Virus record (IMG/VR): IMGVR_UViG_3300024348_000007
DNA from: a virus
Direction: 5' to 3' (one strand)
Length of the DNA stretch: 64,000 nucleotides
Shown: positions 30,801 through 48,318 of the stretch, piece by piece
Layout: each line of letters begins with the position of its first letter
Position numbering within the stretch: position 1 is the first letter of the stretch
Position numbers and translations under genes: made by a program
The notes under the pieces: model-generated
The model's input: only the letters and a program-made list of their open reading frames with translations
What the model was told of the DNA's origin: nothing
The model's database searches: none

Positions 30801-33433
30801 TAAGAGTTGATAACAGAGATATTGAGCCAAATGATCATACTGCAGGCAGATTAACGTTTGGTTTCACATCTTGGAATAATAACAACACATCACCTTGGGC
30901 TGATTATTTACACTTAAGATCTTATACAGATGCATCAGGTGGATCAGATAACCTTCTTATGTTTAAGAAGTCTGGTCGTGGAATGCGTTTATGGCAACAA
31001 ACTTTTAACAGTGGTACAGCGTATTCCGCGTATTCTGATGTTGCGATATATAACGCAAACCCTGGTAATACGCCTTTCTATGCATCAAGATACTATGATT
31101 CAAATAATACTGCATACTACGGTGATTTTGCATCAACATCCATTGTTAATATAATTAGGTATGCGTCTGGTGGTTATGCAGAGTTCCAAACAGCAGCCGG
31201 TAATATTCGCGGATATATGCAAGCAACTGACGACAACGATGCGCACCTTAAAATTGCTACATCGGGCGGTGAAGATATTAGATTTACGGACGGCGGCCTA
31301 TCCGGTGATTGGAATGTGATTATCAGAGGTGATGGTCAAACATTAATTCGAAGCAGATTAGACACTCCTATCATGTACGATAGAGATGATACTGGTTATT
31401 ATAGTAATCCAGCAGGAGCCTCCAACTTTAATACAAGTATTCGCGCAAACGAGGTTTATGCACGTAACTGGTTCAGAAATGATAACTCTGGCGAGGGTAT
31501 GTATAACCAAGCAACGGGTATGCATTGGTATTCAACAAATAATACCACTTGGAGAGCATACGGCGGACAGACTACTGTAAAAATAGAAATGAACACAGCT
31601 AGTAATACTTTAAGAGGTTCATTCTACGCAAACAATAGTGATGAAGTAGGTATCTTATCTCAAGATAATGGTTGGGCTTTACAAGCTACTAACTCTAAAG
31701 TAGATGCGCACCATAATTTCTATGCTCCTATCTTTTATGATAGAGACGATTCAAATTATTATGTAAATCCAGCCGGCGATGCAAGAATTTCTGGTACTGT
31801 TCAAGCAAACCGTTTTACACATAGAGATGCAGTATCACAAAACGATACTTTTGGACTATATTTTGCTGATAACGCATCTACTGCATACGCGATTTATCGT
31901 GAAAGCGGTGGTTGGAGCAGCCCATATCCAGATTTAAGAATTGCTTTCCATACTGGTATTAAGTTTGGTGCAAACTCTGGTTACCAAGGTATGCGTTTCT
32001 ATAATGACTATAACATGGTTACTCAGGTTATGTCAATCAATAATGGTAGTGACCCATTAGGTGCTAACGATGTTTATGTAAATAACTCATTGCAATCAGG
32101 CAATTCATTAAGATCGCCTATTTTTTATGACTCGAACGATACAGCTCGTTACACGAACCCTGCAAGTACATCTGAAATGGGCACTATACGAGCCGATCGT
32201 TTTGATATGCGTGATCGTGGAGATTGGATTACTTTCTATGGTGATGATAGTACAAACCATGGTATTGCATCTCGTGGTTCTACAGGAACCGCAACTGACG
32301 ATATTCGTATTAACACCTATGGTTCTCTTTTTATTAACCTAGACTCAAACAACAATAATACATCTGGAGCTGACTTCTATATTGGTCGCCATGGTAGTGC
32401 TACTGGTACTATTGCTAATAGTGACTTGTTTAGAGTATACGGTGATGATAACTATGCTTACTCAGCATACAGTTTCAGAGCGCCTATCTTCTATGACTCA
32501 AACGACACTGGTTATTATTGTAATCCGAACAGTTCATCTAATTTTGCTACATCTGTTCGTGCAAATGAATTCTATGCTCGTAACTGGTTCCGTAATGATA
32601 ATGGCGCAGAAGGTTTATATAACCAAAATAACGGTTGTCACTTCTATGCGAGATCGTCTCAATACTGGCACGCGACTGGTAATAATAACGCCAGTGCTAT
32701 TAATATGCAATTAAGATCAACATATGACGGCAATATTAGGATGTGGTTACACGGTGACTCATCAAGTTGGTGTGGATACTTAAATGATGGCGGTCAATGG
32801 ATGATTAGAACTAGAATGACAGATGGTTCGTCTCCAAACCACTGGTATTATGAGGATTCAAACACAACTTGGACCGGTAACCCTGGGAATGATAAAGGTA
32901 AAATTGAATATCACTCAGATAGATTTTATATCGCTGCTGGTGGTAACTCAAATAGAATTTGTCAATTCCGTAGAGATGGTACTGATAAAGCTTATGTTAA
33001 TAACGATGGCGTTTATGTCGGTACAGCTACGTCAGCACAATGGGCTGACCTTGCAGAAAGATATAGCGCTGACGAAGTTTATGAGAATGGTACATTACTA
33101 GGTATGAACCTAGACGGTGAATCTGAAGGTACTCTTTATCAACCAGGAATGCCTATCTTAGGAGTTATTTCTACATCGCCTGGTGTTAAAATGAACGACA
33201 TGGAAATCGAAGATGATAACTCTCTTGAAGGTAAAATGAACCCTTATATTGCTCTTAAAGGACGTATACCGTGTAAAGTAAATGGAGACGTTAAAAAGGG
33301 TCAATGGTTAATACCTGATATTGACGGTAAATGTAAAGGAATAGATTATGGTACTTCTGGTATAAATAGTCATGAAATTATAGGAATTGCGCTTAGCGAC
33401 TCCGAAAATGGTGAAGTAGAGGTGAAAGTATAA
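24863..33433 (+). CDS. long tail fibre (~2856 aa) with C-terminal autoproteolytic intramolecular chaperone (Peptidase G2-like)
   Basis: ATG at 24863 follows a GGGGAGAG SD. GSGLDADLLDG motif and many 'P.FYDS..T.YY..PA..S' repeats. C-terminal WADLAERY...ILGVIST.PG..MN...IALKGRIPCKV.G.VKKG domain. Confidence 0.8.
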   Translation: MANDKKFIVKNGLQSENNVLVGTTTDDGVNKLQVSGTTKLINSGSSVPITIENTGGINTPLINFEGGVGALQVKNTGSGDYSILNTSGANEIKFNDNTANGLVFIAGNTDQLKINTTVADFTNVPSINGVPVWYSGNDGAGSGLDADLLDGLNSIQFLRSDENDTFDGDLVITGDLTVQGTRTEIISETVLIADNIITLNSNFTASNPTENAGIEVERGTLTNSIFQWNETMDWWELNSAGTSLGRIITTADEGSGNGFDADTVDGLQASQFIRSDVNDVATGNLEFEGTVAIGNEAGSALLTMRGAGTNRVLSSDNGKIGFLDTGFAYNTYSDANYNWHVGNDVIAKRLLDADDNSYLVDPAGESQLNDVVLVGELYGHDGTAKDGSTYIDLQNNGTTGLIYFNVDGAGLHTTLSKDQMFVNKKVVAPRFEDSNDNGYYVVPSSVSRLSQIQIDDYIIHKGDTNTYFGFDTDDSYKLYINGVQQLAMSASSAVFTNDVEAARFVDSDNNSYFLDPASASTLNTIGIDSDLFHNGDTDTKLSFGTNQIDFNTGGTQRLSIANAASTFSHSVIAPNVYIDDYIYHTGDTPANTTYFGFSADDNFGVVLGGNGALLLTPTATTSIAYIYAPRFVDTDNSARYLDPSATSPLNNISLDGVLQNLNDPDTYLTFASDAVQFYTGNTLRAFINNSYLETTVSVRSPVYYGTSQIVDFLDLDAGAGSDALRVRGRLNIGGGTDVERFNDTTGNGGITISGYAGMGGTTNPSIQVSGANGARSLLSLNKIDIGGNPYSSKNNYFAEFLTDGAAAFSIRGDNSKNAYFIADADQKMVFMDSGANTRLAMDELGNTIIGNDSISFTQGSHTPVLASGAKTDGKLHVDGSIHINGADDALVIGGTTSTFLRDDELGFGSGGGFYMNDTTNLRVRNNKLLTSTGNASFAQYLDANDVLFYGDFASTSRMNNISLVGEVIHDGDTNTKIGFGTDQIIFTAGGTAQLNVYTTYAQATTDMRSPIFSDAGGTFKFEPNTSSAHRFTTPTGWLEIGSKVAGSTAFDTDRALFTFNKRVNFDGGISAADTNDDAYFNRYYDYGDNNYYIDAAGDSQLNTIDIDDFIRHRGDTGTYMGFSAAATYKVVIVGTERLNIDGNSADFNVDVYAPRYYDSNNTNYYVDPGSTSIVNNLRTNQIQMDGSSLIIDSPSGPKGTIMVTGERDSYAGYMIDNDWGFISSGATEMGLYNETDNEWSLLANRNNFTRLYSNNIHQIGAENGYGYAPNRMRAPIFEDSNDTAFYADLAGQSRLKSVKAGDSAIYNNTTYPLEVKSSQERMIVMQNTSADTNFPSILHNTRNSRATMALSFNNIGERFWFEENGNIQAYGAGIFGSLALNGGNEDLGLLKTYGSGLADLKMFDASDYWDKRVIQPMQGSENSATSSTGEYVKNGNGPFASSYALRTAGYRDFDSDYIPVQPGETIYVEQAVRNISGSGGLFYLGVRRYDKDKNPIASNDGIVYFGASAINNTSTSWTEYKGTHTLPTSHTPYNGSDGEGVRYVRVISLMNYSAGGATREFGPPILKRTNVQSDLVTPNLTVEVDLTVGGNATITGDLTVDDITADVITANRFADRGNTAYYVEPLTGAKVAGSWDWTNGSINNLNNLTFNDPGPNEGIKWNGGNLWQIYESPNDLATNTGGNLQFTSGANQGSMRLRVDTSGDVYAGRYHRAQRFYDTNNAAYYADPASTSVLNQVYINEYLRHSGDTDTYLRFIGADDMQLVAGGRQMLRMGEGTDPDRLRFVTDSNWTDSNGDWAMSRNVVVQGTHTAVNSSYAPIFYDYDDNAYYGNFAGTSLMNIVRANRFEVDGSTRYIDGISGQYGTIRVTGNTNGYAGYAINDDWVFMSSGAGMSGIYNDTNNEWSAQFLQNSDVKLYHNGGEKFSTNSGGATIYGRLIADYMADRNNTAYTVNPAGTSRFLDLDVDNPIGGNIAGYSENLLRVDNRDIEPNDHTAGRLTFGFTSWNNNNTSPWADYLHLRSYTDASGGSDNLLMFKKSGRGMRLWQQTFNSGTAYSAYSDVAIYNANPGNTPFYASRYYDSNNTAYYGDFASTSIVNIIRYASGGYAEFQTAAGNIRGYMQATDDNDAHLKIATSGGEDIRFTDGGLSGDWNVIIRGDGQTLIRSRLDTPIMYDRDDTGYYSNPAGASNFNTSIRANEVYARNWFRNDNSGEGMYNQATGMHWYSTNNTTWRAYGGQTTVKIEMNTASNTLRGSFYANNSDEVGILSQDNGWALQATNSKVDAHHNFYAPIFYDRDDSNYYVNPAGDARISGTVQANRFTHRDAVSQNDTFGLYFADNASTAYAIYRESGGWSSPYPDLRIAFHTGIKFGANSGYQGMRFYNDYNMVTQVMSINNGSDPLGANDVYVNNSLQSGNSLRSPIFYDSNDTARYTNPASTSEMGTIRADRFDMRDRGDWITFYGDDSTNHGIASRGSTGTATDDIRINTYGSLFINLDSNNNNTSGADFYIGRHGSATGTIANSDLFRVYGDDNYAYSAYSFRAPIFYDSNDTGYYCNPNSSSNFATSVRANEFYARNWFRNDNGAEGLYNQNNGCHFYARSSQYWHATGNNNASAINMQLRSTYDGNIRMWLHGDSSSWCGYLNDGGQWMIRTRMTDGSSPNHWYYEDSNTTWTGNPGNDKGKIEYHSDRFYIAAGGNSNRICQFRRDGTDKAYVNNDGVYVGTATSAQWADLAERYSADEVYENGTLLGMNLDGESEGTLYQPGMPILGVISTSPGVKMNDMEIEDDNSLEGKMNPYIALKGRIPCKVNGDVKKGQWLIPDIDGKCKGIDYGTSGINSHEIIGIALSDSENGEVEVKV
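33361..33368 (+). promoter_or_regulatory. candidate late promoter TATAAATA inside the 3' end of the fibre gene
   Basis: Exact consensus 67 bp before the ATG of the first Cys/His-tailed gene. It is intragenic, so it could be chance. Confidence 0.5.
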
Positions 33434-33434
33434 T

Positions 33435-33848
33435 ATGCCATCATATGCAGATTTAAACACTAGCATGCAAGAAAAAGCTGGGGCACAGCTACGCACGTTT
33501 GATAAAGGAATTACTATTACAATACAATCGTGGGTTCGTATTTGGGGGTTTGATAGCTCTTACGGATCATGGATGATTGTTAACGGCTATGGTTGGTATG
33601 GTAATAGTGCTCATTACCACAGATTTGAATATGTTAACGCAAATAACACATTGTTTGAAAACTATCTTGATGGCGGAATATATACCGGTGGTATTATCCG
33701 TTCACAAGATGTTATTGATTCAATTACCGATGTTGTTCGAAGAGCTGTTGATTTGGTCGAAGGCAGACTAACTAACAGAAGTATGACTGCACGTCCTTGT
33801 CACCAAAGCTGTCATAGTAGTTGTCATACATCTAGAGGAAGAAGATAA
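33435..33848 (+). CDS. putative radical-SAM substrate / fibre-tip protein A with C-terminal CHQSCHSSCHTSRGRR
   Basis: Starts 1 nt after the fibre stop. Aromatic-rich core with a Cys/His/Ser repeat tail. Paralog of the next gene. Confidence 0.65.
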   Translation: MPSYADLNTSMQEKAGAQLRTFDKGITITIQSWVRIWGFDSSYGSWMIVNGYGWYGNSAHYHRFEYVNANNTLFENYLDGGIYTGGIIRSQDVIDSITDVVRRAVDLVEGRLTNRSMTARPCHQSCHSSCHTSRGRR

Positions 33849-34270
33849 TGGCTGCATCAGTATCTGACATTAACTCATATGTACAAACATATTCTGGCTC
33901 ACAACTAAGAACTTTTGATAAAACCGTCACATATACCGTAAATACGTATGTTCGGTATTATCGATTTGATAGCGCATATGGCGGTGCGTTGAGGCTTGAC
34001 GGTGCTCAATATACTACAAACTCAACCTTTACTAGAAGATATCTTCATTACTCCTGGACCGGGCGCGATGCACTCTTTGACGGCTATTATGACTCTGGAA
34101 TTACTGCAGGTGGACTTATGTATGCTCAAGATATTGTAGATACTGTAGAAGATGCTGTAAGAAGAGCTGTTGATCTAATGGAGGAAAGAATCGTAAATAC
34201 AGTCAAGACAATTAACGCGTGCCATGCTAGTTGCCATAGTAGTTGTCACACATCGAGAGGAAGACGCTAA
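33848..34270 (+). CDS. putative radical-SAM substrate / fibre-tip protein B with C-terminal CHASCHSSCHTSRGRR
   Basis: TAATG overlaps on both sides. Shares QLRTFDK, FDSxYG, LFxxYxDxGIxxGG, QD, D.VRRAVDL.E.R and the tail with protein A. Confidence 0.65.
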   Translation: MAASVSDINSYVQTYSGSQLRTFDKTVTYTVNTYVRYYRFDSAYGGALRLDGAQYTTNSTFTRRYLHYSWTGRDALFDGYYDSGITAGGLMYAQDIVDTVEDAVRRAVDLMEERIVNTVKTINACHASCHSSCHTSRGRR

Positions 34271-35445
34271 TGTCTATGCAAAAATCATATTGTAAACAAA
34301 TGAGATATTCTGGACCAGAAAGTCTAACACCATCTGATGCATCTAAATTCGATGTTCTTATTCAAATGGAAGTTTTAGCTGGGTGCGATCACGGTTGCTT
34401 AGGTTGTTTCGTAGATAAAAACATTAATCCTGATATGAACCAACAAATTATTGATAGAGCAAAGGAACTCGCTGATGGTGTAAAAAGAACTGGGCTTAAT
34501 CTTAGAGAATTTGTCATAGGTCCAACAGATTTCTTTTCTGCAACTAACACGGAGTCAGTTTTAAATAACTCAGTAGTCCAAGAGATTATGAGAGAACACG
34601 TTGGCGCTCGGATTGCAGCACCTGCAAAATTTGATATCGCTACAATGGAAAGAGTAAAAGAAATCTATGCAATTCTTGATGACGAAGATAAGTATCGCCG
34701 TGATATGATCATTGAGTTTATTATGCCAATCGGTAAAGTAGATCAGATGTTAAATGATGAAGAATACTTTAATAATGTTATGGAAAAAGTAGAATTCTTT
34801 AAAAATAATACACCAAAACAAATGGATTGGTCTTGGACACTACAGGCTTCTAACGTTGTTGGTAAGAAGATTGATAAAGAAACATATAACAAGATTGTTC
34901 AAAAATCAGTAAACGAATACAAGACTATTGTAGAAATGAACCCTGCTTTCTCAAGAGCGAGATCCCAATTGGTACAGCGTAGAAACCTGTTTGGATGGAA
35001 CGATTTCCTTGGTAGAGTTATTGATAAAGATAACGCACAAGAGACAGTTATGTCAATGGCTAATCTTTATTGTAACTCAATTAACTTTATTGGACTTACA
35101 ATCGTACCAGGAGAACACGGACCTACTACACATTTAAATGTAATGCTACACGAACAAGCATTCTTCCTTAATAATAAAAACTTAGACGTTACAGGTCTTA
35201 CCTTCGAAGAAATATTAGATCGTAAAAACGAGCTAGTAACCAAGGGCATAAATAGATCAAGCAAAGTATCTGATTGCAACGGATGCCAATTTGCCGTAGC
35301 TTGTGCAAGTAGACTAATTTTTGAAGCTCAAGAAACTTTAAACGTCGATGGATGTGTTTTAAACAAAGATGTCCTTGCAGAATATAACCCATACGATTGG
35401 ACTTGGAACGACGATGCGATGGAAAAACTAGGAGTAACATCATGA
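34270..35445 (+). CDS. radical SAM protein 1 (IGPTD family, C-terminal Cys cluster)
   Basis: EVLAGCDHGCLGCFV (CX3CX2C), VIGPTDF, and CNGCQFAVAC...GC. The ATG at 34270 overlaps the upstream stop. Confidence 0.85.
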   Translation: MSMQKSYCKQMRYSGPESLTPSDASKFDVLIQMEVLAGCDHGCLGCFVDKNINPDMNQQIIDRAKELADGVKRTGLNLREFVIGPTDFFSATNTESVLNNSVVQEIMREHVGARIAAPAKFDIATMERVKEIYAILDDEDKYRRDMIIEFIMPIGKVDQMLNDEEYFNNVMEKVEFFKNNTPKQMDWSWTLQASNVVGKKIDKETYNKIVQKSVNEYKTIVEMNPAFSRARSQLVQRRNLFGWNDFLGRVIDKDNAQETVMSMANLYCNSINFIGLTIVPGEHGPTTHLNVMLHEQAFFLNNKNLDVTGLTFEEILDRKNELVTKGINRSSKVSDCNGCQFAVACASRLIFEAQETLNVDGCVLNKDVLAEYNPYDWTWNDDAMEKLGVTS

Positions 35446-36524
35446 TAGGTCAACACCTTTATTTTTTAAATAACAAAAAATATATTACAAACTCGACTAA
35501 TCTCGAAACTGTATTTTTCGAGATGAACTCGTTTTATCACACGAAAACACCTAGAACAGTTTGTATGATTGAATCATCAATGCCAGACAGCCAAATCGTC
35601 CAGTATGATGTAAGAGTACGTGCTGATTCTATTCGCGCTAATGCCGGTGCTGATATTATTTTTAAACCTTGGGAAGAAGTTTGTACTAGTGAGTTTATCC
35701 AAAATAGCGAAAAATATATTCTTGTAGCTTGGGAAGAAGAAGATCAAATTCACATTCACGCAAGATATGCCGCTGGCTTATTAGCCGCTGCTGGTTTCTA
35801 TGCAGATACTGATCACGACGTAAACACTATTGTTGGTGAATTTATGGAAAAAATCTTTGATTGTGATAGTATGTTCACGTATATGTCAGCGGCTCCTGCC
35901 GTTCAAGATATATCAAACACAGTTGAAACTATTTTGAATAATCCAGAAACTCCACCTTTTGATGTTATATATCAAAACGGTAAAAACTTTAGCTATGACT
36001 TTTTATTCTTTTTAAACGAATTCTATCCCTGCGCAGAAGTACAAGCTCTGTTAATCGAGAAGTTTACAATTCATAGCGCTGATATGGCACAAGATGTTAT
36101 GGAACACTTTACGTCACGGCGCCACTACTTGGCATATATTCTTTCTGTAATTGATTGGATGAACAATAACGGTTTACCAGTAGATAAACAACAATTTGTA
36201 AACGATGTTTATATGAAAGCTGCTAATAAAGGTAATTATCAAATTGCGTTTTATCAATTGGAAGAGTTATGGAATAGGGTAAAAGATAACGAAGCTTTCA
36301 TTCTTGCACATACTGATAAAAGAGATAACACAAGAGATGGTTGGGAATTTTGGGATATGTATACCGAAATAAGCAACGTATTCCCTATCGTTAAAAAGGT
36401 GCTTGAGCGTAGTTTTGATATGGATAATCTAACAGAAGACTTGAGGTTGATTAACACTGATGTTCAGTTCTTCTCTAAAAGACAAAATAGAATTCCATAT
36501 TTGATACACAAATACACATTATAG
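35442..36524 (+). CDS. hypothetical protein (~360 aa) in the radical SAM operon
   Basis: ATGA overlap with rSAM1 and a GGAG SD; no motif recognised. Confidence 0.65.
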   Translation: MIGQHLYFLNNKKYITNSTNLETVFFEMNSFYHTKTPRTVCMIESSMPDSQIVQYDVRVRADSIRANAGADIIFKPWEEVCTSEFIQNSEKYILVAWEEEDQIHIHARYAAGLLAAAGFYADTDHDVNTIVGEFMEKIFDCDSMFTYMSAAPAVQDISNTVETILNNPETPPFDVIYQNGKNFSYDFLFFLNEFYPCAEVQALLIEKFTIHSADMAQDVMEHFTSRRHYLAYILSVIDWMNNNGLPVDKQQFVNDVYMKAANKGNYQIAFYQLEELWNRVKDNEAFILAHTDKRDNTRDGWEFWDMYTEISNVFPIVKKVLERSFDMDNLTEDLRLINTDVQFFSKRQNRIPYLIHKYTL

Positions 36525-36534
36525 GATGTAATAA

Positions 36535-42409: not shown

Positions 42410-43466
42410 AATCAAATCCTGTAATTAAGTTCTGTCCAGTTTTTTCCATATAGTTAAACCACATTCTCATGATGCAGTCAGGTAAGTCTCGTTCTCTATT
42501 CTTCCAATCCCATTGGGTATAACATCTAAATCCACATTTGTTCCACCACTTACAAGATAAACAACCATTCTCGTCCATATATGCTTGCATCATACCAGCA
42601 TTATCTTTGGGTTTATATTCTGTATTAAAATCTCTCTGATCATATCTATCCCATCTACAGTTTGACGTAGAATTATCGGGGAATATCGTAACCTTATTTA
42701 AAGCCAAGCAATGCATATGGTTACTATCATTATATATAAGATCTTTTATAGGATTAATATCGGGATAGTTATGATATACAAATTTAAGAAATTCTAAGTA
42801 TTCACTATCAGATGGAATCATATAATCATAACCACGATCTGGAATGTAATCATCAAAGTAAAAGTTATCAAACTTTTCATATAGATAGTGAAAATACTCA
42901 TCATCGTCTGCCATAAACTTTTTTATTGATAAAGTAGTAGCAACCATATTAATTGATACGATATAGTCGGCAAAGTATTCTATATTTTTAGCATATGGAC
43001 CTTTTGTTGGTCGCCCATCAAAGTCATATGAACATATAATATGTGAAGGAATTGCTTCAGCGTTTAGGTCGTCGAGCAGTCGCTGAACTCTGTCTCGTTT
43101 ACTAAATTGAAACGATGTTACCCACACAACTTTAATTTTTTGTTTATGTTCGTCAAATATCTTTTTAATTGCTACAAGGAAATCAAAGTAAACAGGGTAA
43201 GCCCATTCTGATATTCTATCTTGGAATAACTCACCGCCAACCATATTGATTTGGATTATATCAACTCTGCCTTTCATCTTAATGACATGTTGTTCAACTA
43301 AATCCAATTTAGAGAATATCTCTTCCCTACTCAATCCTACGGTAGATTTTTTATCATGATGGCAGAACGAACAATTGAGGTGACAGTTTTCAAATAAAGT
43401 CAACTCAATCTCAGCGATATCAGGTCGTTTAGTTTCTAATAATGTTTTTGTTATTTCAAAGTCCAA
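42387..43466 (-). CDS. radical SAM/SPASM protein 6
   Basis: Probable TTG start after an AGAGGA SD. LFENCHLNCSFCHH, MVGGELF, and CLALN...NCRW...CLSCKWWNKCGFRC...C. Confidence 0.85.
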   Translation of the reverse strand: MDFEITKTLLETKRPDIAEIELTLFENCHLNCSFCHHDKKSTVGLSREEIFSKLDLVEQHVIKMKGRVDIIQINMVGGELFQDRISEWAYPVYFDFLVAIKKIFDEHKQKIKVVWVTSFQFSKRDRVQRLLDDLNAEAIPSHIICSYDFDGRPTKGPYAKNIEYFADYIVSINMVATTLSIKKFMADDDEYFHYLYEKFDNFYFDDYIPDRGYDYMIPSDSEYLEFLKFVYHNYPDINPIKDLIYNDSNHMHCLALNKVTIFPDNSTSNCRWDRYDQRDFNTEYKPKDNAGMMQAYMDENGCLSCKWWNKCGFRCYTQWDWKNRERDLPDCIMRMWFNYMEKTGQNLITGFDYEKKTRD

Positions 43467-43854
43467 ATAACATTTCCTCTTTATAGTATTCGTAGATATC
43501 GGGAACCATACCAAGTTTTTCATTAAACTCTAGTTGGAATAGTATCTCGTCGTAAGTTTCTTTGTCTTGCCAATATGGAACAAAGTGCGGATCATTATTA
43601 AATAGTAACTCAGGATCGTTAAGTGCATCGAAAAACGGTTCGTTAAAATCCCTGTTTAACCAATGAGCATAACATATAGCAACTACATATGATTTAGCTG
43701 GGTAAATCCATTCGTCTACATACTCTCTGAAGTGTGTTAGAGCAAACTCAACCGTAAGGTCAGGTTGCCAATTAATCTCCACGTCAGTCAGATCATCTTT
43801 GAATAAAGATGCTGTCAAATGATATGCGCTTTGTCTAGCTTTCCATTCTTTCAT
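43456..43854 (-). CDS. hypothetical protein (~132 aa) between radical SAM genes
   Basis: Overlaps both neighbours; aromatic and acidic; no motif recognised. Confidence 0.6.
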   Translation of the reverse strand: MKEWKARQSAYHLTASLFKDDLTDVEINWQPDLTVEFALTHFREYVDEWIYPAKSYVVAICYAHWLNRDFNEPFFDALNDPELLFNNDPHFVPYWQDKETYDEILFQLEFNEKLGMVPDIYEYYKEEMLFGL

Positions 43855-44743
43855 AATATTCCAACAATCCTTTATATCCATTACAACTATTAGTCAAATC
43901 TTTAACATATCGGTAATGTTCTGTTAAACAATTACCATAATATTTACACGTCTTACATATTTCGCTTAGATTGTTCTCAGGTTCTTCCCTTGCCCACTTC
44001 TTGTACTCATAATATGTTTTATATTCTTTGAAGTATTCCCTATCATATTTATCGAACTCCAATACCCCAAACTTACCAGATGGAGTAATATACACATGAT
44101 CATTACTAAAAGCATCATACTCTTTATCTATGCTTCTCCATATATTATCCATATTCTGAAAATTAAACTTTTTCTCTGTTTTTGCTTCGTCAAACTTAAT
44201 AACAAAATCTTCAAAGTCTTTGTGTGTAACAGGATGTGCATTTGCTTGGTTTATTGAGTAAGGTTTAATTTCTACAGACTTAATATTAGATACCATATTA
44301 AGAGTGAAGATCATAAACTCTACATCCATCTCTAATACTTTTGGAGAGGCCAATATTAATACAGATAAATCCTTATTGGCGTTCATCATATTATTTAAAA
44401 CATGCTGTTCTTTTTCTCTGGCATGGAAATCATATGATACAGATAATGTTACATCCTCATCTCGAAAGAAGTCTGGGAACGCAGACAAATTAGTATTGAT
44501 ATTGATAGGACCTTTGTAATAATTACGTATTACTTTCTTTAATGAATAATAATATTCTGGTGATAGTAAACCAATCTCACCGCCGTATAGATCTACGTGC
44601 CCTATTTGATCATCTACTTGACTTAAAGAATGATCTAACCATAAAGGCGTTATCTTATGTCTATCGTTTAATTGTGCTGGCGTTAAATAACAAAAATCAC
44701 AACTGAAGTTACAATAGTAGGTGGGATTAATTGATAGATTCAT
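43835..44743 (-). CDS. radical SAM protein 7 (short SPASM-like C-terminus)
   Basis: INPTYYCNFSCDFCY, LYGGEIG, and CKTCKYYGNC...SC. Confidence 0.88.
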   Translation of the reverse strand: MNLSINPTYYCNFSCDFCYLTPAQLNDRHKITPLWLDHSLSQVDDQIGHVDLYGGEIGLLSPEYYYSLKKVIRNYYKGPININTNLSAFPDFFRDEDVTLSVSYDFHAREKEQHVLNNMMNANKDLSVLILASPKVLEMDVEFMIFTLNMVSNIKSVEIKPYSINQANAHPVTHKDFEDFVIKFDEAKTEKKFNFQNMDNIWRSIDKEYDAFSNDHVYITPSGKFGVLEFDKYDREYFKEYKTYYEYKKWAREEPENNLSEICKTCKYYGNCLTEHYRYVKDLTNSCNGYKGLLEYYERMES

Positions 44744-45764
44744 CAACATAAGGCGTCACCATATCTGGGCTCATTCCATTCGTAGCAAGTATTCTTGGAG
44801 CGAGCGTTTTCATTTGTTTGCAATGTGCTTCATTTGTCCCTTCTCTTTTCATATCACGTACTGTCTTTTTACAACCATTACATATTTCGAACATTGGACA
44901 CGTATAGCAAGCCATCTTCATTGTTTGGATATGAGGATCGTTAGCCAATGGAGTCTGCATTTCGCCATTCATTTCTTCCTCAAAATCAATAGGATAATCC
45001 ATATCATCAGCAAACGAACCGCAAGAATAGTAATCACCGCCAGGGTTAAAAGCTCGAATGCCACTATCACATTGTCTATTTTGTGGACAAGATGTTGAAA
45101 AACCTTTGAGGCGTTTCATCATTTGCTTTGTATTATATTCGTATTCTGCTAATCCACGATCGTATATCTCAAGATATGTTTCGTAAATCTTACTTAACTG
45201 ATATGTACTGCCTTGAACACCAGAAGCCATAGCATAATTTAGTTTGCATTCTACACCCATTTCTTTAGCAAGTTCAACGTTCTTAATAGCAAGATGTTCG
45301 TTCTCATCTGTTATGACGGCAATAAAGTCTGGTCTTTCTCCAGTGTGTTTCAACATAGCGTTTGATACCATCCAAAAATCTTTCTCAGTAAATTCGGAAT
45401 AATCACCTTTTAATCTACCACCACCATATTGAAATGATGTTGCACAACCAAACCTATCATTCTTAAAGATAGGAAGCCACTTCTCGGGACGCATTAAAAA
45501 AGGCCACAGATTAGATGTAAAACTAATTGATGCGGGATAATCATGTTCATTAAGATGATCTATTAGTTCCTGATAATATTCTGGCTTTACCATAAGAGGG
45601 TCACCACCATTAACGATAATAGTATTAGTATCGGGATATCGCTTAAGAAATTTGTATATGTATTCCAAGTCTAATAAGCCAACTTCGTTAGGATCGATGT
45701 CGGTAGAAGAACAAAATGTACATTTAAAATTGCAAGCTTCAGTGGGTTTAATAATTAAATCCAT
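44727..45764 (-). CDS. radical SAM/SPASM protein 8
   Basis: IKPTEACNFKCTFCS, NGGDPL, and CPQNRQC...YSCGS...CYTCPMFEICNGC...HC. Confidence 0.9.
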   Translation of the reverse strand: MDLIIKPTEACNFKCTFCSSTDIDPNEVGLLDLEYIYKFLKRYPDTNTIIVNGGDPLMVKPEYYQELIDHLNEHDYPASISFTSNLWPFLMRPEKWLPIFKNDRFGCATSFQYGGGRLKGDYSEFTEKDFWMVSNAMLKHTGERPDFIAVITDENEHLAIKNVELAKEMGVECKLNYAMASGVQGSTYQLSKIYETYLEIYDRGLAEYEYNTKQMMKRLKGFSTSCPQNRQCDSGIRAFNPGGDYYSCGSFADDMDYPIDFEEEMNGEMQTPLANDPHIQTMKMACYTCPMFEICNGCKKTVRDMKREGTNEAHCKQMKTLAPRILATNGMSPDMVTPYVDESIN

Positions 45765-46783
45765 CCCTTATCTCCTGCTAGTTTTAGCATTAGAGTTTTA
45801 GGCGCTGGACAAACGTCTTCCATCCATTGAAGTTGGTGACAATCAGAATGGCAATAGATAAAGACTGGGCAATCATAACATCTTGGATCACGATCATGAG
45901 TTTCACACGAAATGATTTCCATTCGTTTCGGGCTTAATCTTACTTCTTTTGCTGGCATACTAATATCACCATACCATTGAGTAGGCGCAGTATTAGGACA
46001 ACCTGCTACAGTTCCATCAGCATTGATTGTGTGTATCTTTTGTTCACAATCCCTACAGAACGTACCATTAAAGAATTGACCTTTACTAAACTTATCATAA
46101 ACTGAGTTAAGAAAGTTGTTTTCAATAGGGTGATCTTTAGTTGTCTCATGCATTTTCATCCAAAAAGCATCGAGCTCAGAATTATGAGGGAAGATTTCTG
46201 TGTTTATCGTTGCGTTACCATCATGAGTAAGTCTTTCATAACTAATAGTACCAATACCTAATGAATACATATAATCAGCAATTTCAAGAGGATCCATTGC
46301 AACAACATCTTTAGACACTGAAATAAAGCATTGGATATAACATCCCTCAGCTACCAAAAGCTTTACATTATCTTCCCATAACTTTCTCTGCTTTTCATTT
46401 GCAAATCTAATATTTGGGTCCCAAGATGTACCGATAGAACCAGAGTCTAATATTTTAAGAAACTCGATACGTTCATCTGTAAGTTTATAAGTTAGATTTG
46501 TTGTAATACCATGTGTGCATTTATCACCCCAATGATCTTTCGTAACATTGTAGAAATGCCACAGATCTTTCATAGGCGCTAGCAAAGGTTCTCCACCATG
46601 ATATTCGAAGTGAATACGGTTTGAACCATCGTCTAGTTCGTTACACCACTTTGCAGTTTTATCTGCATCAAAATAAATTTTACGACCATTGATACCAGAG
46701 GTAAAACAATGTGCACAATTTAAATTACAAGTTTCTGTAGTCTTAACGTATACGATTAAGTGTTTCTGAGTCGTGAATGCCAT
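45755..46783 (-). CDS. radical SAM/SPASM protein 9
   Basis: VKTTETCNLNCAHCF, HGGEPL, and CRDC...AGCPN...CYDCPVFIYCHSDC...CP. Confidence 0.9.
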   Translation of the reverse strand: MAFTTQKHLIVYVKTTETCNLNCAHCFTSGINGRKIYFDADKTAKWCNELDDGSNRIHFEYHGGEPLLAPMKDLWHFYNVTKDHWGDKCTHGITTNLTYKLTDERIEFLKILDSGSIGTSWDPNIRFANEKQRKLWEDNVKLLVAEGCYIQCFISVSKDVVAMDPLEIADYMYSLGIGTISYERLTHDGNATINTEIFPHNSELDAFWMKMHETTKDHPIENNFLNSVYDKFSKGQFFNGTFCRDCEQKIHTINADGTVAGCPNTAPTQWYGDISMPAKEVRLSPKRMEIISCETHDRDPRCYDCPVFIYCHSDCHQLQWMEDVCPAPKTLMLKLAGDKGWI

Positions 46784-47198
46784 GTGATAACATTAGTGCC
46801 TTTTCATAATTTAACGCTCTGTGCGGTGTTCCTGCTTCTATGAACAGAGTTTCATTTTTAGATAAAGAAATCTCTTTACCTTCAACTTCCATGATCTTAG
46901 TTCCTTCGACGCATTCTATAATAACATCAATTGGATCAGTATGTACATCAAAAGATGCACCGTTTTCCTGATTATAAAAAACATGAACAGTTCCGTTATT
47001 AATGCCTAAAGGTTTTTCAAACTGTTCTACTTTAATGGTAGCTTTATTTGCTAATAAAACCGTAGTTTCTCCAAGATAAGCAATGTATTCTGATTGTTTT
47101 ATGTAATGCTGATTTCCATCTTCATCTATATGAGATACGTCGTGGTTATTAAAGCATTCTTCTGTTAATAAGAAATTTTCAAATTGGTCAAATGTCAC
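46743..47198 (-). CDS. cupin / JmjC-like putative Fe(II)-2OG hydroxylase
   Basis: GTG start after a GGAGA SD. FDVHTDPIDVII..GTK...LFIEAGTPHRA gives the HxD...H facial triad. Confidence 0.7.
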   Translation of the reverse strand: MTFDQFENFLLTEECFNNHDVSHIDEDGNQHYIKQSEYIAYLGETTVLLANKATIKVEQFEKPLGINNGTVHVFYNQENGASFDVHTDPIDVIIECVEGTKIMEVEGKEISLSKNETLFIEAGTPHRALNYEKALMLSHGIHDSETLNRIR

Positions 47199-47223
47199 TA
47201 CTATTCTCCATGTCGTATATATC

Positions 47224-47231
47224 TATTTATA
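47224..47231 (-). promoter_or_regulatory. T4-type late promoter (TATAAATA on minus strand)
   Basis: TATTTATA on + strand, ~25 bp upstream of the cupin gene that heads the minus-strand radical SAM operon. Confidence 0.75.
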
Positions 47232-47258
47232 CCATAATTTTAGAGCTTTGTAAACCGT

Positions 47259-47266
47259 TATAAATA
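47259..47266 (+). promoter_or_regulatory. T4-type late promoter TATAAATA
   Basis: Exact consensus upstream of the 2OG-Fe(II) oxygenase gene, divergent from the 47224 promoter. Confidence 0.75.
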
Positions 47267-47293
47267 ATTGTATATATTATGAGGAGATTGATT

Positions 47294-47863
47294 ATGGAAA
47301 TGACTCCAAGATGGCCTACTATGTTTGGTCAAGGGAAATTTGAAGTTGAAGGGTTATTTGAGTACCTATTTGCAAACTACGACCTAAACGATCCAGGCGG
47401 TGATGTAGATGGCGCAAATATTTTTACAGATAATTCTGAAATGATGAATAAGTTTAAGTCCGTTGTTCATGGTAAATTCAACGAATATCTTACAAACACA
47501 ATCAGTAAGACTATAGAAGACTTTGGCGATCACGAAATTAAAGCTTGGATTACAGGTCATGGTAAAGGTTATAGCATGACAACCCATAACCATTCTGGTG
47601 CACACATATCAGCTGTGTTTTACGTTTTAGCTGAAGATAAGTATTCTGGTGGGTCAATTGTATTCATTGATCCAAGAAGTAATGCAAATCGTGGATACGA
47701 TAGTTCGTTTGATGATTTATTTGCGCATCATGCATTCGTCCCAGAAACTGGTGATTATGTAATCTTTCCTTCTTTTAATTACCATCACGTAAAACCTTAC
47801 TACTCTGAATTTAGAATATGTATACCAGTTGATTTGTATTTGTATAGTAACAAAGATGTATAA
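47294..47863 (+). CDS. putative 2OG-Fe(II) oxygenase
   Basis: ATG after a GAGGAG SD. HNHSGAHISAVFYV...FIDPR...P.TGD.VIFPS..YHHV.P...RI matches the marine phage 2OG oxygenase pattern. Confidence 0.8.
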   Translation: MEMTPRWPTMFGQGKFEVEGLFEYLFANYDLNDPGGDVDGANIFTDNSEMMNKFKSVVHGKFNEYLTNTISKTIEDFGDHEIKAWITGHGKGYSMTTHNHSGAHISAVFYVLAEDKYSGGSIVFIDPRSNANRGYDSSFDDLFAHHAFVPETGDYVIFPSFNYHHVKPYYSEFRICIPVDLYLYSNKDV

Positions 47864-48315: not shown

Positions 48316-48318
48316 AAA

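What the first reader, a model, noticed from the sequence alone, without database searches (positions are those of the whole stretch)
33361..47863. Phage-encoded RiPP-like maturation island: two Cys/His-repeat substrates next to the tail fibre, nine radical SAM enzymes and two oxygenases
Seen: two paralogous ~140-aa genes ending in CHxSCHSSCHTSRGRR lie immediately after the long fibre gene and are coupled by a TAATG overlap to the first of nine CX3CX2C radical SAM genes. All nine carry C-terminal Cys clusters (SPASM-like). A JmjC-like cupin, a 2OG-Fe(II) oxygenase and four unknown ORFs complete the island. Known: rSAM/SPASM enzymes cross-link Cys-rich peptides (sacti-/ranthipeptides such as SCIFF) and His-containing three-residue motifs (triceptides, His-Xaa-Ser systems). 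Multiple rSAM genes have been reported in some myoviruses (e.g. Campylobacter CP220-like phages), with no substrate assigned as far as I know. Inference: this is a dedicated pathway that modifies the two small proteins, probably as virion or fibre components, giving a phage-built cross-linked adhesin or effector.
Basis: partly seen in the sequence, partly recalled or inferred. Interest (0 to 1): 0.95.

Follow-up and report, generated by a model that had tools for sequence, protein, structure and literature searches.

The report
Radical-SAM kit maturing Cys-His-tailed phage proteins
Behind its giant tail-fibre gene, a marine T4-like phage carries nine radical-SAM enzymes and two iron oxygenases around two small proteins with an almost invariant (Cys-His-x-Ser)x3-Arg-Gly-Arg-Arg tail, and this undescribed kit, which also occurs in jumbo phages and predatory bacteria, most likely modifies that tail chemically.

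Summary
At 33435-34270 two paralogs (46% identical) end in CHxSCHSSCHTSRGRR. They are joined by TAATG overlaps to each other and to the first of nine CX3CX2C genes. A cupin, a 2OG-Fe(II) oxygenase and four unknown ORFs complete the island.

The link between tail and enzymes is far beyond chance.
- A DNA scan for the tail alone found 118+ viral contigs. Nearly all with enough flank carry the same enzymes.
- The reverse scan, starting from one enzyme, found no contig that reaches far enough yet lacks the tail.
- Six isolated jumbo phages checked (RSL2, RSF1, S13, Atu_ph07, Phosso, pPa_SNUABM_DT01) have the tail.
- So do chromosomes of predatory Bdellovibrionota.

The shared core is the tail protein, four SPASM/twitch radical-SAM enzymes, a cupin and two unknown proteins. 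The five atypical enzymes here are a lineage-specific expansion. No Pfam or NCBIfam family covers any part, and no paper found names the tail protein.

Best reading (about 0.55): a late-expressed protein-maturation system that cross-links or oxidises the tail. A virion or fibre role is plausible but unproven. The closest known analogue is the bacterial HXS defence system, but membership fails.

This scan met the same cassette earlier on other genomes and read it the same way.

The parts
24854..33433 (+). Giant tail-fibre gene (2859 aa). Its last ~145 residues (about 32996-33430) form a Peptidase_G2-type intramolecular chaperone / autocleavage domain.
   Evidence: ORF. The C-terminal domain is conserved at the end of otherwise different fibres upstream of the cassette. 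A profile of it hits the PDB Dpo31 chaperone domain (E 1.5e-4) and phi29 gp12. PF11962 matches 18 of 19 relatives, but not the window's own copy.
33361..33368 (+). TATAAATA, a T4 late-promoter-like motif 67 nt before the CHa start
   Evidence: Eight of the 11 matches in the window lie within 75 nt upstream of a same-strand ORF start, including the fibre and sheath genes (compare).
33435..33848 (+). CHa, tail protein 1 (137 aa). The tail CHQSCHSSCHTSRGRR is encoded at 33798-33845.
33848..34270 (+). CHb, tail protein 2 (140 aa). The tail CHASCHSSCHTSRGRR is encoded at 34220-34267.
   Evidence: The AF2 model (pLDDT 78) shows two helices, a long beta hairpin with a hypervariable tip, and a low-confidence tail. 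No fold match was found.
34243..35445 (+). aR1, atypical radical-SAM paralog 1 (likely ATG at 34270, overlapping the CHb stop)
   Evidence: CX3CX2C, GPTD in place of GGE, and CX2CX5C...C; phrog_31457; Fer4_12 and NrdG-like N-terminal hits only
35397..36524 (+). U375, an unknown protein found only in the marine layout
   Evidence: No Pfam, NCBIfam or Atlas hit.
36535..37440 (+). U301, an unknown protein and a universal core component
   Evidence: An iterated HMM search finds it in 127 loci, including RSL2 ORF070, Atu_ph07 gp169, DT01 and Bdellovibrionota. No PDB sequence match.
37394..38443 (+). aR2, atypical radical-SAM paralog 2
38430..39587 (+). aR3, atypical radical-SAM paralog 3
   Evidence: PF04055 at 20.6 bits, below threshold; tblastn to RSL2-type phages at 22-25% identity
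39577..40734 (+). aR4, atypical radical-SAM paralog 4
   Evidence: (TIGR04085 E 0.049)
40655..41737 (+). aR5, atypical radical-SAM paralog 5
41696..42415 (-). U239, an unknown protein (phrog_7084), seen only in close relatives
42387..43523 (-). R6, core radical-SAM enzyme with a seven-Cys SPASM-like C-terminus
   Evidence: It has orthologs in RSL2, Atu_ph07 and DT01.
43456..43881 (-). U141, a small core accessory protein (phrog_20737)
   Evidence: Orthologs occur in all lineages. The AF2 model has pLDDT 90. No clear fold match; the best Z is 3.1, with many weak winged-helix rows.
43835..44749 (-). R7, core radical-SAM enzyme with a four-Cys (twitch-like) C-terminus
44727..45764 (-). R8, core radical-SAM/SPASM enzyme and the most conserved part (at least 52% identity across all lineages)
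   Evidence: PF04055 at 36.8 bits. Best NCBIfam hits are DynA (1e-14) and anSME (7e-11) over the full length. It is 55-61% identical to jumbo-phage proteins.
45755..46783 (-). R9, core radical-SAM/SPASM enzyme; elsewhere it is the gene next to the tail protein
   Evidence: Best NCBIfam hits are DarE, PapB and HxsB. CX3CX2C, GGEP and eight SPASM Cys are invariant. PDB profile hits include CteB, anSME (full length) and ChlB.
46743..47198 (-). Small cupin (JmjC_2-like), first gene of the minus-strand operon
   Evidence: Orthologs sit ahead of R9 in the other lineages.
47224..47231 (-). TATAAATA, a late-promoter-like motif 26 nt before the cupin start
47279..47863 (+). 2OG-Fe(II) oxygenase (PF13759 / TIGR02466 family), a frequent but not universal neighbour

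Best explanation
This is a protein-maturation cassette. The two small proteins act as carriers, and their invariant 16-residue C-terminus, (Cys-His-x-Ser)x3-Arg-Gly-Arg-Arg, is the substrate.

Four conserved radical-SAM enzymes of the SPASM/twitch class (R6-R9) most likely install carbon-carbon or carbon-sulfur cross-links on the three C-H-x-S units. Candidate chemistries are a His-to-Ser-C-beta cyclophane, as in three-residue cyclophane makers, or Cys thioethers. In this phage five extra atypical paralogs would take part as well. The cupin and the 2OG oxygenase would add oxygen-dependent changes, perhaps on the Arg or His residues. U141 and U301 would be helpers that hold the substrate.

The genes are co-transcribed with late fibre genes. 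The matured proteins therefore probably act together with the neighbouring self-cleaving trimeric fibre, in or on the virus particle.

Shown: the anatomy, the conservation, the two-way gene linkage, the enzyme class and the distribution. Inferred: that the tail is the substrate, the chemistry, the late timing and the virion role.
For: 1. Tail invariance. It is invariant in 119 of 120 clusters found through the N-terminal domain at 35-98% identity. Mean pairwise identity is 0.90 for the tail, 0.20 for the hairpin tip and about 0.6 for the helices. Among 164 distinct gene ends all synonymous codons are used, including both Ser and both Arg boxes. The two positions left free by the search pattern are still 91% Ser and 90% Gly.

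2. Linkage from tail to enzymes. Of 118 viral contigs chosen only by the tail's DNA pattern, nearly every locus with enough flank has R9 beside the tail gene plus the cupin, R6, R8, R7 and U141. The 27 hits in prokaryote genomes show the same.

3. Linkage from enzymes to tail. Of 80 loci chosen by R8, 25 show the tail within 10 kb. In the rest the expected site lies outside the stretch fetched. Eight such contigs checked another way all have the tail genes, and three end too early. No counter-example was found.

4. All 171 tail proteins form one homologous family, 61-309 aa long, with the tail always at the very C-terminus.

5. Enzyme class. R8, R9 and their bacterial orthologs align over their full length to peptide- or protein-modifying SPASM enzymes: DynA, DarE, anSME, PapB, YhhB, FxsB and QhpD, and PDB CteB, anSME and ChlB. 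The SPASM Cys are invariant.

6. H and S invariant with x free is what a three-residue cross-link motif needs. Ser is not a usual metal ligand (established knowledge of triceptide makers; inference).

7. Operon structure and timing. TAATG overlaps run fibre-CHa-CHb-aR1. TATAAATA lies before CHa and before the minus-strand operon, as it does before the fibre and sheath genes. The neck, sheath and portal genes follow.

8. Fibre link. A fibre ending in a G2 chaperone domain lies within 2.5 kb of the cassette in 59 of 88 loci. A Peptidase_S74 fibre-like gene lies beside the chromosomal copy in a Halobacteriovoraceae genome.
Against: - No modification has been observed anywhere.
- The enzymes have no recognisable peptide-recognition (RRE) domain. 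The fold of U141 gave no clear match.
- Three Cys and three His could simply bind a metal.
- The RSL2-type tail protein is annotated only as hypothetical, while its neighbour ORF065 is annotated as a virion structural protein. That annotation is weak evidence either way.
- About a third of loci show no G2-ended fibre next to the cassette, and the RSL2 and DT01 neighbours are fibre-like only by their appearance.
- The best NCBIfam hit of R7 is to the viperin family, which acts on nucleotides, although only over the rSAM core.
- Oxygen-sensitive enzymes in phages of oxic surface water need an explanation.
Confidence: 0.55

Rival explanations
1. The matured tail protein is not a particle component. 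It is an effector that works in the infected or attacked cell, as a phage and predator counterpart of the bacterial HXS system. There, an HxS-repeat protein matured by radical-SAM enzymes binds DNA and blocks genome entry. Here it could exclude competing phages, counter such a defence, or help genome or cell entry.
For: - The three H-x-S units followed by an Arg-rich end resemble the basic HxS repeats of HxsA. In HxsA the modified motif is SHRSS and the maturases are rSAM enzymes (PMC13128918).
- The cassette occurs in phages and in prey-invading Bdellovibrionota, both of which cross a Gram-negative envelope.
- The tail protein is not annotated as a virion protein in the jumbo-phage records.
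Against: - There is no signal peptide and no peptidoglycan-binding domain hit in any of 12 variants.
- HxsB and HxsC score far below their cut-offs, and no HxsD was found.
- The genes sit in late structural operons next to fibres.
Confidence: 0.13
2. The tail is not a substrate. It is a metal or iron-sulfur site (three Cys, three His), and the small protein serves the many radical-SAM enzymes as an electron donor, cluster donor or scaffold. Their true substrate would be the fibre or a small molecule.
For: - Cys and His are invariant at i, i+4 spacing, which suits one face of a helix. AF2 draws a short helix there, at low confidence.
- Up to nine cluster-rich enzymes need reduction and cluster supply.
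- Marine T4-like phages with many rSAM genes also carry Fe-S assembly genes (PMC5332604).
Against: - Ser is as invariant as Cys and His, and so is the Arg-Gly-Arg-Arg end. A metal site does not need either.
- The motif resembles no known ferredoxin or scaffold, and no family hit was found.
- An extreme C-terminal position beside a SPASM enzyme gene is typical of precursors (established knowledge of MftA, PqqA and FXSXX-COOH systems).
Confidence: 0.15
3. The tail is a sacrificial precursor of a small peptide-derived cofactor or metabolite, as PqqA is for PQQ and MftA for mycofactocin. The tail would be cut off after modification, and the carrier domain would act only as a leader.
For: - An invariant core is typical of peptide-derived cofactors and not of bioactive RiPPs, whose cores vary (established knowledge).
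- The core is at the C-terminus, many redox enzymes are present, and the carrier varies in length from 61 to 309 aa.
Against: - No protease, transporter or cofactor-using enzyme is conserved in the cassette.
- The carrier has conserved helices and a hypervariable hairpin tip, which suggests a role of its own.
- The cassette is constantly near fibre genes.
Confidence: 0.12
4. The adjacency is an accident of a hypervariable region. The tail proteins and the enzymes would be unrelated in function.
For: The region between the baseplate and neck genes of marine T4-like phages is a known hotspot for unrelated cargo (PMC7029224).
Against: There is two-way linkage across T4-like, phiKZ-like and other jumbo phages and in bacterial chromosomes, with different gene orders but the same gene set.
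Confidence: 0.02

Closest known systems
HXS antiphage system (HxsA with rSAM maturases HxsB and HxsC and partner HxsD; TIGR03976-03979; Li et al., Nat Commun 2026, PMC13128918)
   Same: - A protein, not a short peptide, carries repeated His-x-Ser units in a basic context.
- More than one radical-SAM enzyme and a small partner protein mature it.
- In HXS the modification (+8 Da) maps to an S-H-R-S-S unit.
   Different: - Here each unit is preceded by an invariant Cys.
- There are exactly three units at the very C-terminus, followed by RGRR.
- There is no signal peptide and no peptidoglycan-binding domain.
- There are four to nine rSAM enzymes plus oxygenases.
- HxsB and HxsC models score 33 and 24.5 bits against cut-offs of 370 and 268, and no HxsD was found.
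- The cassette is carried by phages and predators next to fibre genes, not as a host defence island.
Three-residue cyclophane (triceptide) maturases: XyeB, GrrM/OscB, FxsB, YhhB, ChlB
   Same: - They are SPASM rSAM enzymes that link an aromatic residue, including His, to the C-beta of the residue two positions on (from memory).
- H-x-S with a free x fits that motif.
- FxsA-type substrates carry the motif at the C-terminus (from memory).
- There are weak full-length hits to YhhB and FxsB and to PDB ChlB.
   Different: All scores are far below the family cut-offs. The enzymes have no leader-recognition domain, the Cys is invariant, there are several enzymes per substrate, and no cross-link has been shown.
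Anaerobic sulfatase-maturating enzyme (anSME) and QhpD, which are SPASM enzymes that act on proteins
   Same: - These are leaderless SPASM enzymes of about 340-370 aa that modify a short motif in a protein.
- R9 and its bacterial ortholog align to anSME over the full length (E 9e-20 for the ortholog; PDB 4k37).
- The last unit, C-H-x-S-R, has the C...R spacing of the sulfatase C-x-P/A-x-R motif.
   Different: The third position is Gly, Ser or Thr, and Ala in only 5 of 164 tails. The scores are 42-71 bits against a cut-off of 349. There is no sulfatase or amine dehydrogenase partner.
Phage fibres with a C-terminal intramolecular chaperone plus a downstream tip or assembly protein (phi29 gp12 G2 domain; T4 gp37 with gp38)
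   Same: The fibre here ends in a G2-type autocleaving chaperone domain. It is followed at once by small proteins with a hypervariable loop, much as gp38-type adhesins or chaperones follow gp37 (from memory).
   Different: No sequence or fold similarity to gp38 was found. No known fibre accessory protein is matched with radical-SAM enzymes.

Membership tests
Radical SAM superfamily (PF04055) | CX3CX2C cluster motif near the N-terminus | tested here: met
   Present in all nine ORFs and invariant in the R9 family alignment.
Radical SAM superfamily (PF04055) | HMM score above Pfam's gathering threshold | tested here: inconclusive
   Met by R8 only (36.8 against 29.5 bits). R9 scores 26.5, R7 21.1, aR3 20.6 and R6 17.0. 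aR1 and aR5 hit only Fer4_12, and aR2 and aR4 hit no rSAM model. PHROG phrog_1802, a radical-SAM family, matches R6-R9 at E 6e-20 to 3e-57.
SPASM / twitch subgroup (TIGR04085, PF13186) | C-terminal seven-Cys motif including CX2CX5CX3C (SPASM), or a shortened four-Cys form (twitch) | tested here: met
   R6, R8 and R9 have 7-8 Cys with CX2CX5CX2-3C. R7 and aR1-5 have CX2CX5C plus one more Cys. TIGR04085 scores 21.4 and 24.3 bits in the window, below the 27-bit cut-off, and 29.9 bits for the bacterial R9 ortholog.
His-Xaa-Ser (HXS) system | Substrate with repeated His-x-Ser units | tested here: met
   There are three H-x-S units in every tail.
His-Xaa-Ser (HXS) system | HxsB and HxsC equivalog maturases and the HxsD partner | tested here: not met
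   TIGR03978 scores 33.2 bits against a cut-off of 370. TIGR03977 scores 24.5-37.5 bits against 267.9. No HxsD or HxsA model hit any protein.
His-Xaa-Ser (HXS) system | Exported effector with a peptidoglycan-binding domain | tested here: not met
   No Pfam domain was found in 12 tail-protein variants. The N-termini are polar, with no hydrophobic signal segment (read).
Triceptide (three-residue cyclophane) systems | Aromatic-x-x motif in the substrate with a SPASM maturase of the XyeB, GrrM, FxsB or YhhB families | tested here: inconclusive
   The motif fits. The enzyme hits are only 22-51 bits against cut-offs of 310-450. The cross-link itself cannot be tested with these tools.
Anaerobic sulfatase maturase system | C/S-x-P/A-x-R motif in the substrate and a TIGR03942 equivalog enzyme | tested here: not met
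   The third position is Gly, Ser or Thr, and Ala in 5 of 164 tails. TIGR03942 scores 41.8 bits (R8), 24.6 bits (R9) and 71 bits (bacterial R9 ortholog) against a cut-off of 349.
SCIFF / ranthipeptide systems | Short Cys-rich precursor with an equivalog thioether-forming maturase (TIGR03974, PapB) | tested here: not met
   TIGR03974 scores 19.4 bits against 425, and PapB scores 37.9-57 bits against 340. The substrate is a 125-310 aa protein with only three Cys in the motif.
Peptidase_G2 intramolecular chaperone domain (PF11962), for the fibre C-terminus | C-terminal autocleaving chaperone domain of trimeric fibres and spikes | tested here: inconclusive
   The window's own copy gives no Pfam hit, but 18 of 19 aligned relatives do (best E 2.4e-7). 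The family profile hits the Dpo31 chaperone domain (E 1.5e-4 and 5e-3) and phi29 gp12 (E 6e-3) in the PDB. Cleavage was not tested.

The most novel reading that the evidence does not exclude
Tailed phages of several unrelated lineages and predatory Bdellovibrionota share a dedicated pathway. At least four radical-SAM enzymes plus oxygenases turn the C-terminus of a small protein associated with the fibre module into a rigid, multiply cross-linked, possibly metal-binding 'warhead'. This warhead would be used when the phage or predator attaches to or breaches a Gram-negative envelope. It would be the first virus-particle component finished by radical chemistry, and a mirror image of the host's HXS defence.
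Probability: 0.25. Interest if true: 0.92.

Novelty: new variant of a known kind. Interest (0 to 1): 0.8.

Why it matters
Radical-SAM gene clusters have been noticed in marine T4-like phages and in jumbo phages for about ten years without any substrate or purpose being assigned (PMC5332604, PMC7029224, PMC8066314, PMC11898562). This work gives a concrete, testable substrate: a 16-residue tail that is almost frozen across hundreds of viral contigs.

It also defines a minimal gene set and shows that the set is shared with predatory bacteria. Cultured systems in which to test it are Ralstonia phages RSL2 and RSF1, Burkholderia phage S13, Agrobacterium phage Atu_ph07 and Pseudomonas phage pPa_SNUABM_DT01.

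If the tail is modified as proposed, three things follow:
- It adds a new class of protein post-translational chemistry, with several SPASM enzymes acting on one Cys-His-x-Ser array.
- It may be the first case of radical chemistry used to finish a virus-particle or host-recognition component.
- It raises the question of how such oxygen-sensitive enzymes work in phages of oxic surface waters.

Tried and rejected
- **tblastn false negative.** tblastn of the tail proteins against 50,697 phage records found nothing. The isolates do carry the tail gene, as reading the loci found through the enzymes showed. The N-terminal domains have diverged, and the low-complexity filter probably masks the tail.
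- **megablast.** A search with the whole island found nothing.
- **Folds.** The tail-protein model had no Foldseek hit at E 0.001 or better, and its best VIA Z was 5.7 among unrelated helical rows. The U141 model had a best Z of 3.1, no Foldseek hit and no Atlas row above TM 0.34. The weak winged-helix rows for U141 are only a lead towards a peptide-binding helper.
- **Atlas feature search.** Nothing usable for U375 or U141.
- **PDB sequence profiles.** Nothing for U301 or for the RSL2-ORF069-like family.
- **U375 against the RSL2-ORF069-like family.** hhalign gave 12% probability, so they are not shown to be related.
- **Tools not offered for this window.** Complex prediction (tail with R9) and the look-up of sequencing runs could not be used. 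Binding and expression therefore remain untested.
- **Suspected intron or intein in R8.** Match lengths over 1035 nt in relatives were only tblastn running on into the similar N-terminus of R7. Rejected.
- **Campylobacter CP220-like phages.** Not among the R8 or R9 matches. Their rSAM genes are a different set.
- **Another tail protein after the 4013-aa gene.** The 140-aa ORF at 12973-13395 is not one.
- **Literature.** Searches for the tail strings, and for phage with rSAM, SPASM and fibre, RiPP with virion, and Bdellovibrio with rSAM, found no description of the tail protein. The RSL2/RSF1 virion-proteome paper is not held.

Full report
**What is in the window**

The window comes from a T4-like myovirus. 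After the island lie genes for neck proteins (head-tail adaptor, head closure), the sheath stabiliser, large terminase, tail sheath and portal. Before it lie a 4013-aa protein and several fibre genes with collagen repeats, a Peptidase_S74 chaperone domain and a T7-fibre N-terminal domain. The island therefore sits in the fibre-rich stretch between the baseplate and neck genes. A study of pelagimyophages calls this stretch the host recognition cluster and notes that it can hold 'cassettes related to radical SAM proteins' (PMC7029224). G+C content is 31-39% across the island. No tRNA genes are present. The host is not identified. The nearest held genome is a metagenome bin named as a Rhodobacteraceae bacterium. 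It holds three phage-like contigs, each with its own pair of tail genes.

**Check of the observation**

- The fibre ORF ends at 33433.
- CHa (33435-33848) and CHb (33848-34270) follow. Both end in CH(Q/A)SCHSSCHTSRGRR.
- The CHa/CHb junction and the CHb/next-gene junction are both TAATG overlaps. The first radical-SAM gene most likely starts at the ATG at 34270.
- Nine ORFs have CX3CX2C. Five are mutually related + strand paralogs (aR1-aR5, 21-29% identical). They have GPTD where GGE usually stands and a four-Cys C-terminal cluster.
- Four are on the - strand (R6-R9). R6, R8 and R9 have 7-8 C-terminal Cys (SPASM-like) and R7 has four.
- Only R8 passes Pfam's radical-SAM threshold. The others are recognisable by motif, by weaker scores and by PHROG families.
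- A small cupin and a 2OG-Fe(II) oxygenase close the island. Four ORFs have no family.

**The tail is the conserved element**

A protein search with CHb found 126 clusters of 125-210 aa proteins at 35-98% identity, mostly from marine metagenomes. Of the 120 listed, 119 end in CHxSCHxSCHxSRGRR; the exception looks frameshifted. That set was found through the N-terminal domain, so the tail's invariance is not a product of how it was chosen.

Within this group the mean pairwise identity is:
- 0.90 for the tail,
- about 0.6 for two helices,
- 0.20 for the middle segment, which also varies from 24 to 49 residues.

Among 164 distinct gene ends from all sources, every synonymous codon is used, including both Ser boxes and both Arg boxes. 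The two positions that my DNA pattern left free are Ser in 91% and Gly in 90%. Selection therefore acts on the peptide, not on the DNA or RNA. All 171 tail-bearing proteins collected form one BLAST-connected family of 61-309 aa, with the tail always at the extreme C-terminus. AlphaFold2 models CHb (pLDDT 78) as a helix, a long beta hairpin whose tip is the variable segment, a second long helix and a low-confidence tail. Neither Foldseek nor an exhaustive aligner found a convincing fold relative. No Pfam or NCBIfam model hits any of 14 variants tested.

**Linkage of tail and enzymes**

I scanned IMG/VR with a degenerate DNA pattern for the tail plus a stop codon. I annotated the loci by BLAST with the window's proteins. 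Nearly every locus with enough flank has R9 next to the tail gene, together with the cupin, R6, R8, R7 and U141.

Two layouts recur:
- The commoner one is fibre, cupin, R9, one tail protein of 170-310 aa, R6, R8, often a 2OG oxygenase, R7, U141.
- The marine T4-like layout, as in this window, is fibre, two tail proteins of 125-140 aa, aR1, U375, U301, aR2-aR5, meeting the convergent run cupin, R9, R8, R7, U141, R6.

The reverse test started from R8. IMG/VR holds 249 relatives. Of the 80 loci fetched, 25 show the tail within 10 kb. In the others the tail genes are expected 10.5-11.5 kb away or beyond the contig end. Eight such contigs checked by other routes all have the tail pair, and three fragments end too early. 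I found no contig that reaches far enough and lacks the tail.

**Isolated phages**

R8 and R9 each match the same 15 records (13 phages) out of 50,697. All are jumbo phages of 222-490 kb:
- Ralstonia phages RSL2, RSF1, RsoM3USA and three FLC4 phages
- Burkholderia phages FLC6, FLC8 and S13
- Agrobacterium phage Atu_ph07
- Sinorhizobium phage Phosso
- Pseudomonas phage pPa_SNUABM_DT01

R8 is 55-61% identical to its counterparts in these phages, which is remarkable given how distant they are. I read the loci. RSL2 ORF068, RSF1, S13 gp72, Atu_ph07 gp170, the Phosso gene numbered 289 in its record and DT01 PA10_00065 all end in the tail. The only variations are S, A or N before the first Arg and G or S between the Args. 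The published descriptions of these phages list the cupin, rSAM and 2OG genes as accessory genes without a function (PMC8066314, PMC11898562). A survey of marine viral genomes noted a T4-like genome with 12 rSAM genes (PMC5332604). None names the tail protein, and the tail strings occur nowhere in the searchable literature.

**The core gene set**

Comparison of the window with a distant marine relative, RSL2, Atu_ph07 and DT01, plus iterated HMM searches over all loci, gives this picture.
- Universal: the tail protein, R6, R7, R8, R9, U141 and U301 (127 loci).
- Nearly universal: the cupin.
- Variable: the atypical aR family has one copy in RSL2, two in DT01 and five here, and BLAST found none in the Atu_ph07 locus fetched.
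- Frequent: the 2OG oxygenase.
- Non-marine only: an RSL2-ORF069-like protein occupies the position of U375 in non-marine loci, but it is not detectably related to U375 (hhalign 12%).
- Marine only: U375 itself. U239 occurs only in close relatives.

U141 folds confidently (pLDDT 90) but matches no known fold. The weak rows are enriched in winged-helix domains, which is only a hint of a peptide-binding helper.

**Enzyme class**

R8 and R9 align end to end with SPASM enzymes that modify peptides or proteins.
- For R8 the best hits are DynA and anSME.
- For R9 they are DarE, PapB, CbpB and HxsB.
- The chromosomal R9 ortholog from a Halobacteriovoraceae genome scores best on anSME (9e-20), followed by PapB, DarE, YhhB, DynA, FxsB and QhpD.
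- A profile of the R9 family hits PDB entries for CteB, anSME (full length) and ChlB.
- In the R9 family the three cluster Cys, GGEP and eight SPASM Cys are invariant.

All scores are far below every curated family cut-off, so these enzymes belong to the class but to no described family. Cofactor and nucleotide families (MoaA, NirJ, QueE) rank lower. The exception is R7, whose best weak hit is the viperin family, over the radical-SAM core only. None of the enzymes has an N-terminal leader-recognition domain. In this they resemble anSME and QhpD, which act on proteins.

**Link to fibres and timing**

The last 145 or so residues of the fibre are conserved at the end of otherwise unrelated proteins of 250-2800 aa that lie just upstream of the cassette. 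This domain is a Peptidase_G2-type intramolecular chaperone with autocleavage, as in the phi29 appendage and the Dpo31 tailspike. An ORF with this domain lies within 2.5 kb of the cassette in 59 of 88 loci that have at least 2.5 kb of flank.

Some loci differ. In a group of marine contigs the cupin is preceded by the same 2OG gene, two DUF7936 genes and the 344-aa gene that follow it in this window. The RSL2 and DT01 types have other fibre-like neighbours.

The octamer TATAAATA, the T4 late-promoter core, is no more frequent in the window than chance predicts: 11 matches against 10.6 expected. Its placement is what stands out. Eight of the eleven lie within 75 nt upstream of a same-strand ORF start. 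These include sites before the fibre, the sheath gene, CHa (33361) and the cupin that heads the minus-strand operon (47224). Roughly 3% of positions would qualify by chance; that is my own estimate from gene density. Together with the overlapping stop and start codons, this suggests late co-expression with structural genes. That is an inference, not a measurement.

**Not only in phages**

The same DNA pattern found 27 loci in one-genome-per-species prokaryote assemblies. More than half are in Bdellovibrionota (Bdellovibrio, Pseudobdellovibrionaceae, Bacteriovoracaceae, Halobacteriovoraceae), and all carry cassette enzymes.

On a 1.29-Mb Halobacteriovoraceae contig the cassette is complete (R7, R8, R6, tail protein, U301-like, ORF069-like, R9, U141, cupin, 2OG-like genes). 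It lies between acyl-CoA dehydrogenase and serine dehydratase on one side and an Mrp/NUBPL ATPase, a lytic transglycosylase and a penicillin-binding protein on the other. A 413-aa protein with a pilin-like N-terminus and a Peptidase_S74 fibre chaperone domain sits beside it. I did not look for phage hallmark genes beyond ten flanking ORFs.

R8 orthologs occur in 11 of 301 sampled genomes of the phylum, one of them at 2.2 Mb on a single contig. In a maximum-likelihood tree of R8, ten Bdellovibrionota sequences from several families, plus one contig binned as Flavobacteriaceae, form one well-supported group (97/93) apart from the phage sequences. The root is unknown, so no direction of transfer can be claimed.

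The remaining hits are metagenome bins with phage-like contigs, plus one 4.3-kb contig in an isolate assembly of Dysosmobacter segnis.

**Interpretation**

The data fit a protein-maturation system with the tail as substrate. Five lines point that way:
- an extreme C-terminal, frozen core on a variable carrier;
- a SPASM enzyme gene beside it;
- several more enzymes that must all recognise the same peptide, which would explain why it cannot change;
- Ser as invariant as Cys and His;
- a free x in H-x-S, as in three-residue cross-link motifs.

The chemistry is inferred, whether a His-to-Ser-C-beta cyclophane, Cys thioethers, or hydroxylation of Arg or His by the cupin and the 2OG enzyme. So is the order of steps. 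I put the substrate-enzyme relation at roughly 0.7. The fuller statement, which includes a late role linked to the fibre module, I put at 0.55.

Rivals that keep the maturation idea but change the purpose are an HXS-like effector (0.13) and a released cofactor-like product (0.12). A rival that denies it, the tail as a metal or cluster site serving the enzymes, gets 0.15. Chance adjacency is close to excluded.

**Comparison with known systems**

The closest known system in logic is the bacterial HXS defence system. There, rSAM enzymes HxsB and HxsC with HxsD mature HxsA, which carries basic HxS repeats, and the product blocks phage DNA entry (PMC13128918). Membership fails on the enzymes, the partner protein and the export and anchoring domains. 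Triceptide makers, anSME and QhpD are the closest in enzyme type, and again every family cut-off is missed. I therefore file this as a new variant of a known kind (radical-SAM/SPASM maturation of a ribosomal product), not as a member of any named family.

**Earlier notes of this scan**

After finishing my own analysis I looked up earlier findings. The same cassette was noted on other genomes, and three follow-up reports reached the same reading: an invariant tail, presence in jumbo phages and predatory bacteria, and HXS as the closest known system. They are not independent evidence. Each of those points was re-derived here from the sequence data.

Noticed in passing
window 893, 24817, 33361, 47224(-), 47259, 47859, 58791, 62926: TATAAATA, the T4 late-promoter core, is no more frequent than chance (11 matches against 10.6 expected). 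However, 8 of the 11 copies sit within 75 nt upstream of a same-strand gene start. This gives a usable late-promoter map of the window.
   Followed up: partly
L159:13765-15006:- (Halobacteriovoraceae 1.29-Mb contig, G002): A 413-aa protein with a type IV pilin-like hydrophobic N-terminus and a C-terminal Peptidase_S74 fibre chaperone domain lies next to the chromosomal cassette of a predatory bacterium. It is a possible bacterial counterpart of the phage fibre link.
   Followed up: partly
L161:12153-13880:+ (Pseudobdellovibrio contig, G004): A 575-aa B12-binding radical-SAM protein (KedN5-like methyltransferase, E 2e-24) is inserted in the Bdellovibrionota version of the cassette. This suggests an extra methylation step in that lineage.
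   Followed up: no
L011:16941-18090 (RSL2 ORF073 and ORF074); L244:15403-16580 (S13 gp77 and gp78): Two dihydrofolate-reductase-like genes sit inside the cassette of the RSL2/S13-type jumbo phages, between R6 and R8. No reason for this is apparent.
   Followed up: no
Ralstonia phages RP12 and RP31 (supplement of PMC5468394; RP31 ORF68-76): Related phiKZ-like phages carry a different radical-SAM set after two YomR-like fibre genes, at about the same genome position: a 537-aa rSAM, an anSME-like protein, a MoaA-like protein and MgoB. Fibre-adjacent rSAM cassettes may therefore be a wider theme.
   Followed up: no
window 47926-49725: Two DUF7936 genes and a 344-aa unknown gene follow the 2OG oxygenase. 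The same block (344-aa gene, DUF7936 x2, 2OG, cupin) recurs beside the cassette in several other marine contigs (for example L017, L035, L066, L112).
   Followed up: partly
window 50937-51716: This gene is related to the heptose 7-phosphate kinase / heptose 1-phosphate adenylyltransferase (phrog_7878, E 4e-26). It is a lipopolysaccharide-type gene inside the fibre region, as reported for pelagimyophages.
   Followed up: no
L147 (Dysosmobacter segnis BX15, 4.3-kb contig); L158 (Methanobacteriota bin, 45-kb contig): Cassette fragments turn up in an isolate assembly of a gut Firmicute and in an archaeal bin. In the R8 tree they nest among phage sequences, so they are probably phage DNA or mis-binned contigs.
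   Followed up: partly
window 932-12973: A 4013-aa ORF heads the structural region. It may be the VrlC-like baseplate giant of marine T4-like phages. I did not examine it.
   Followed up: no
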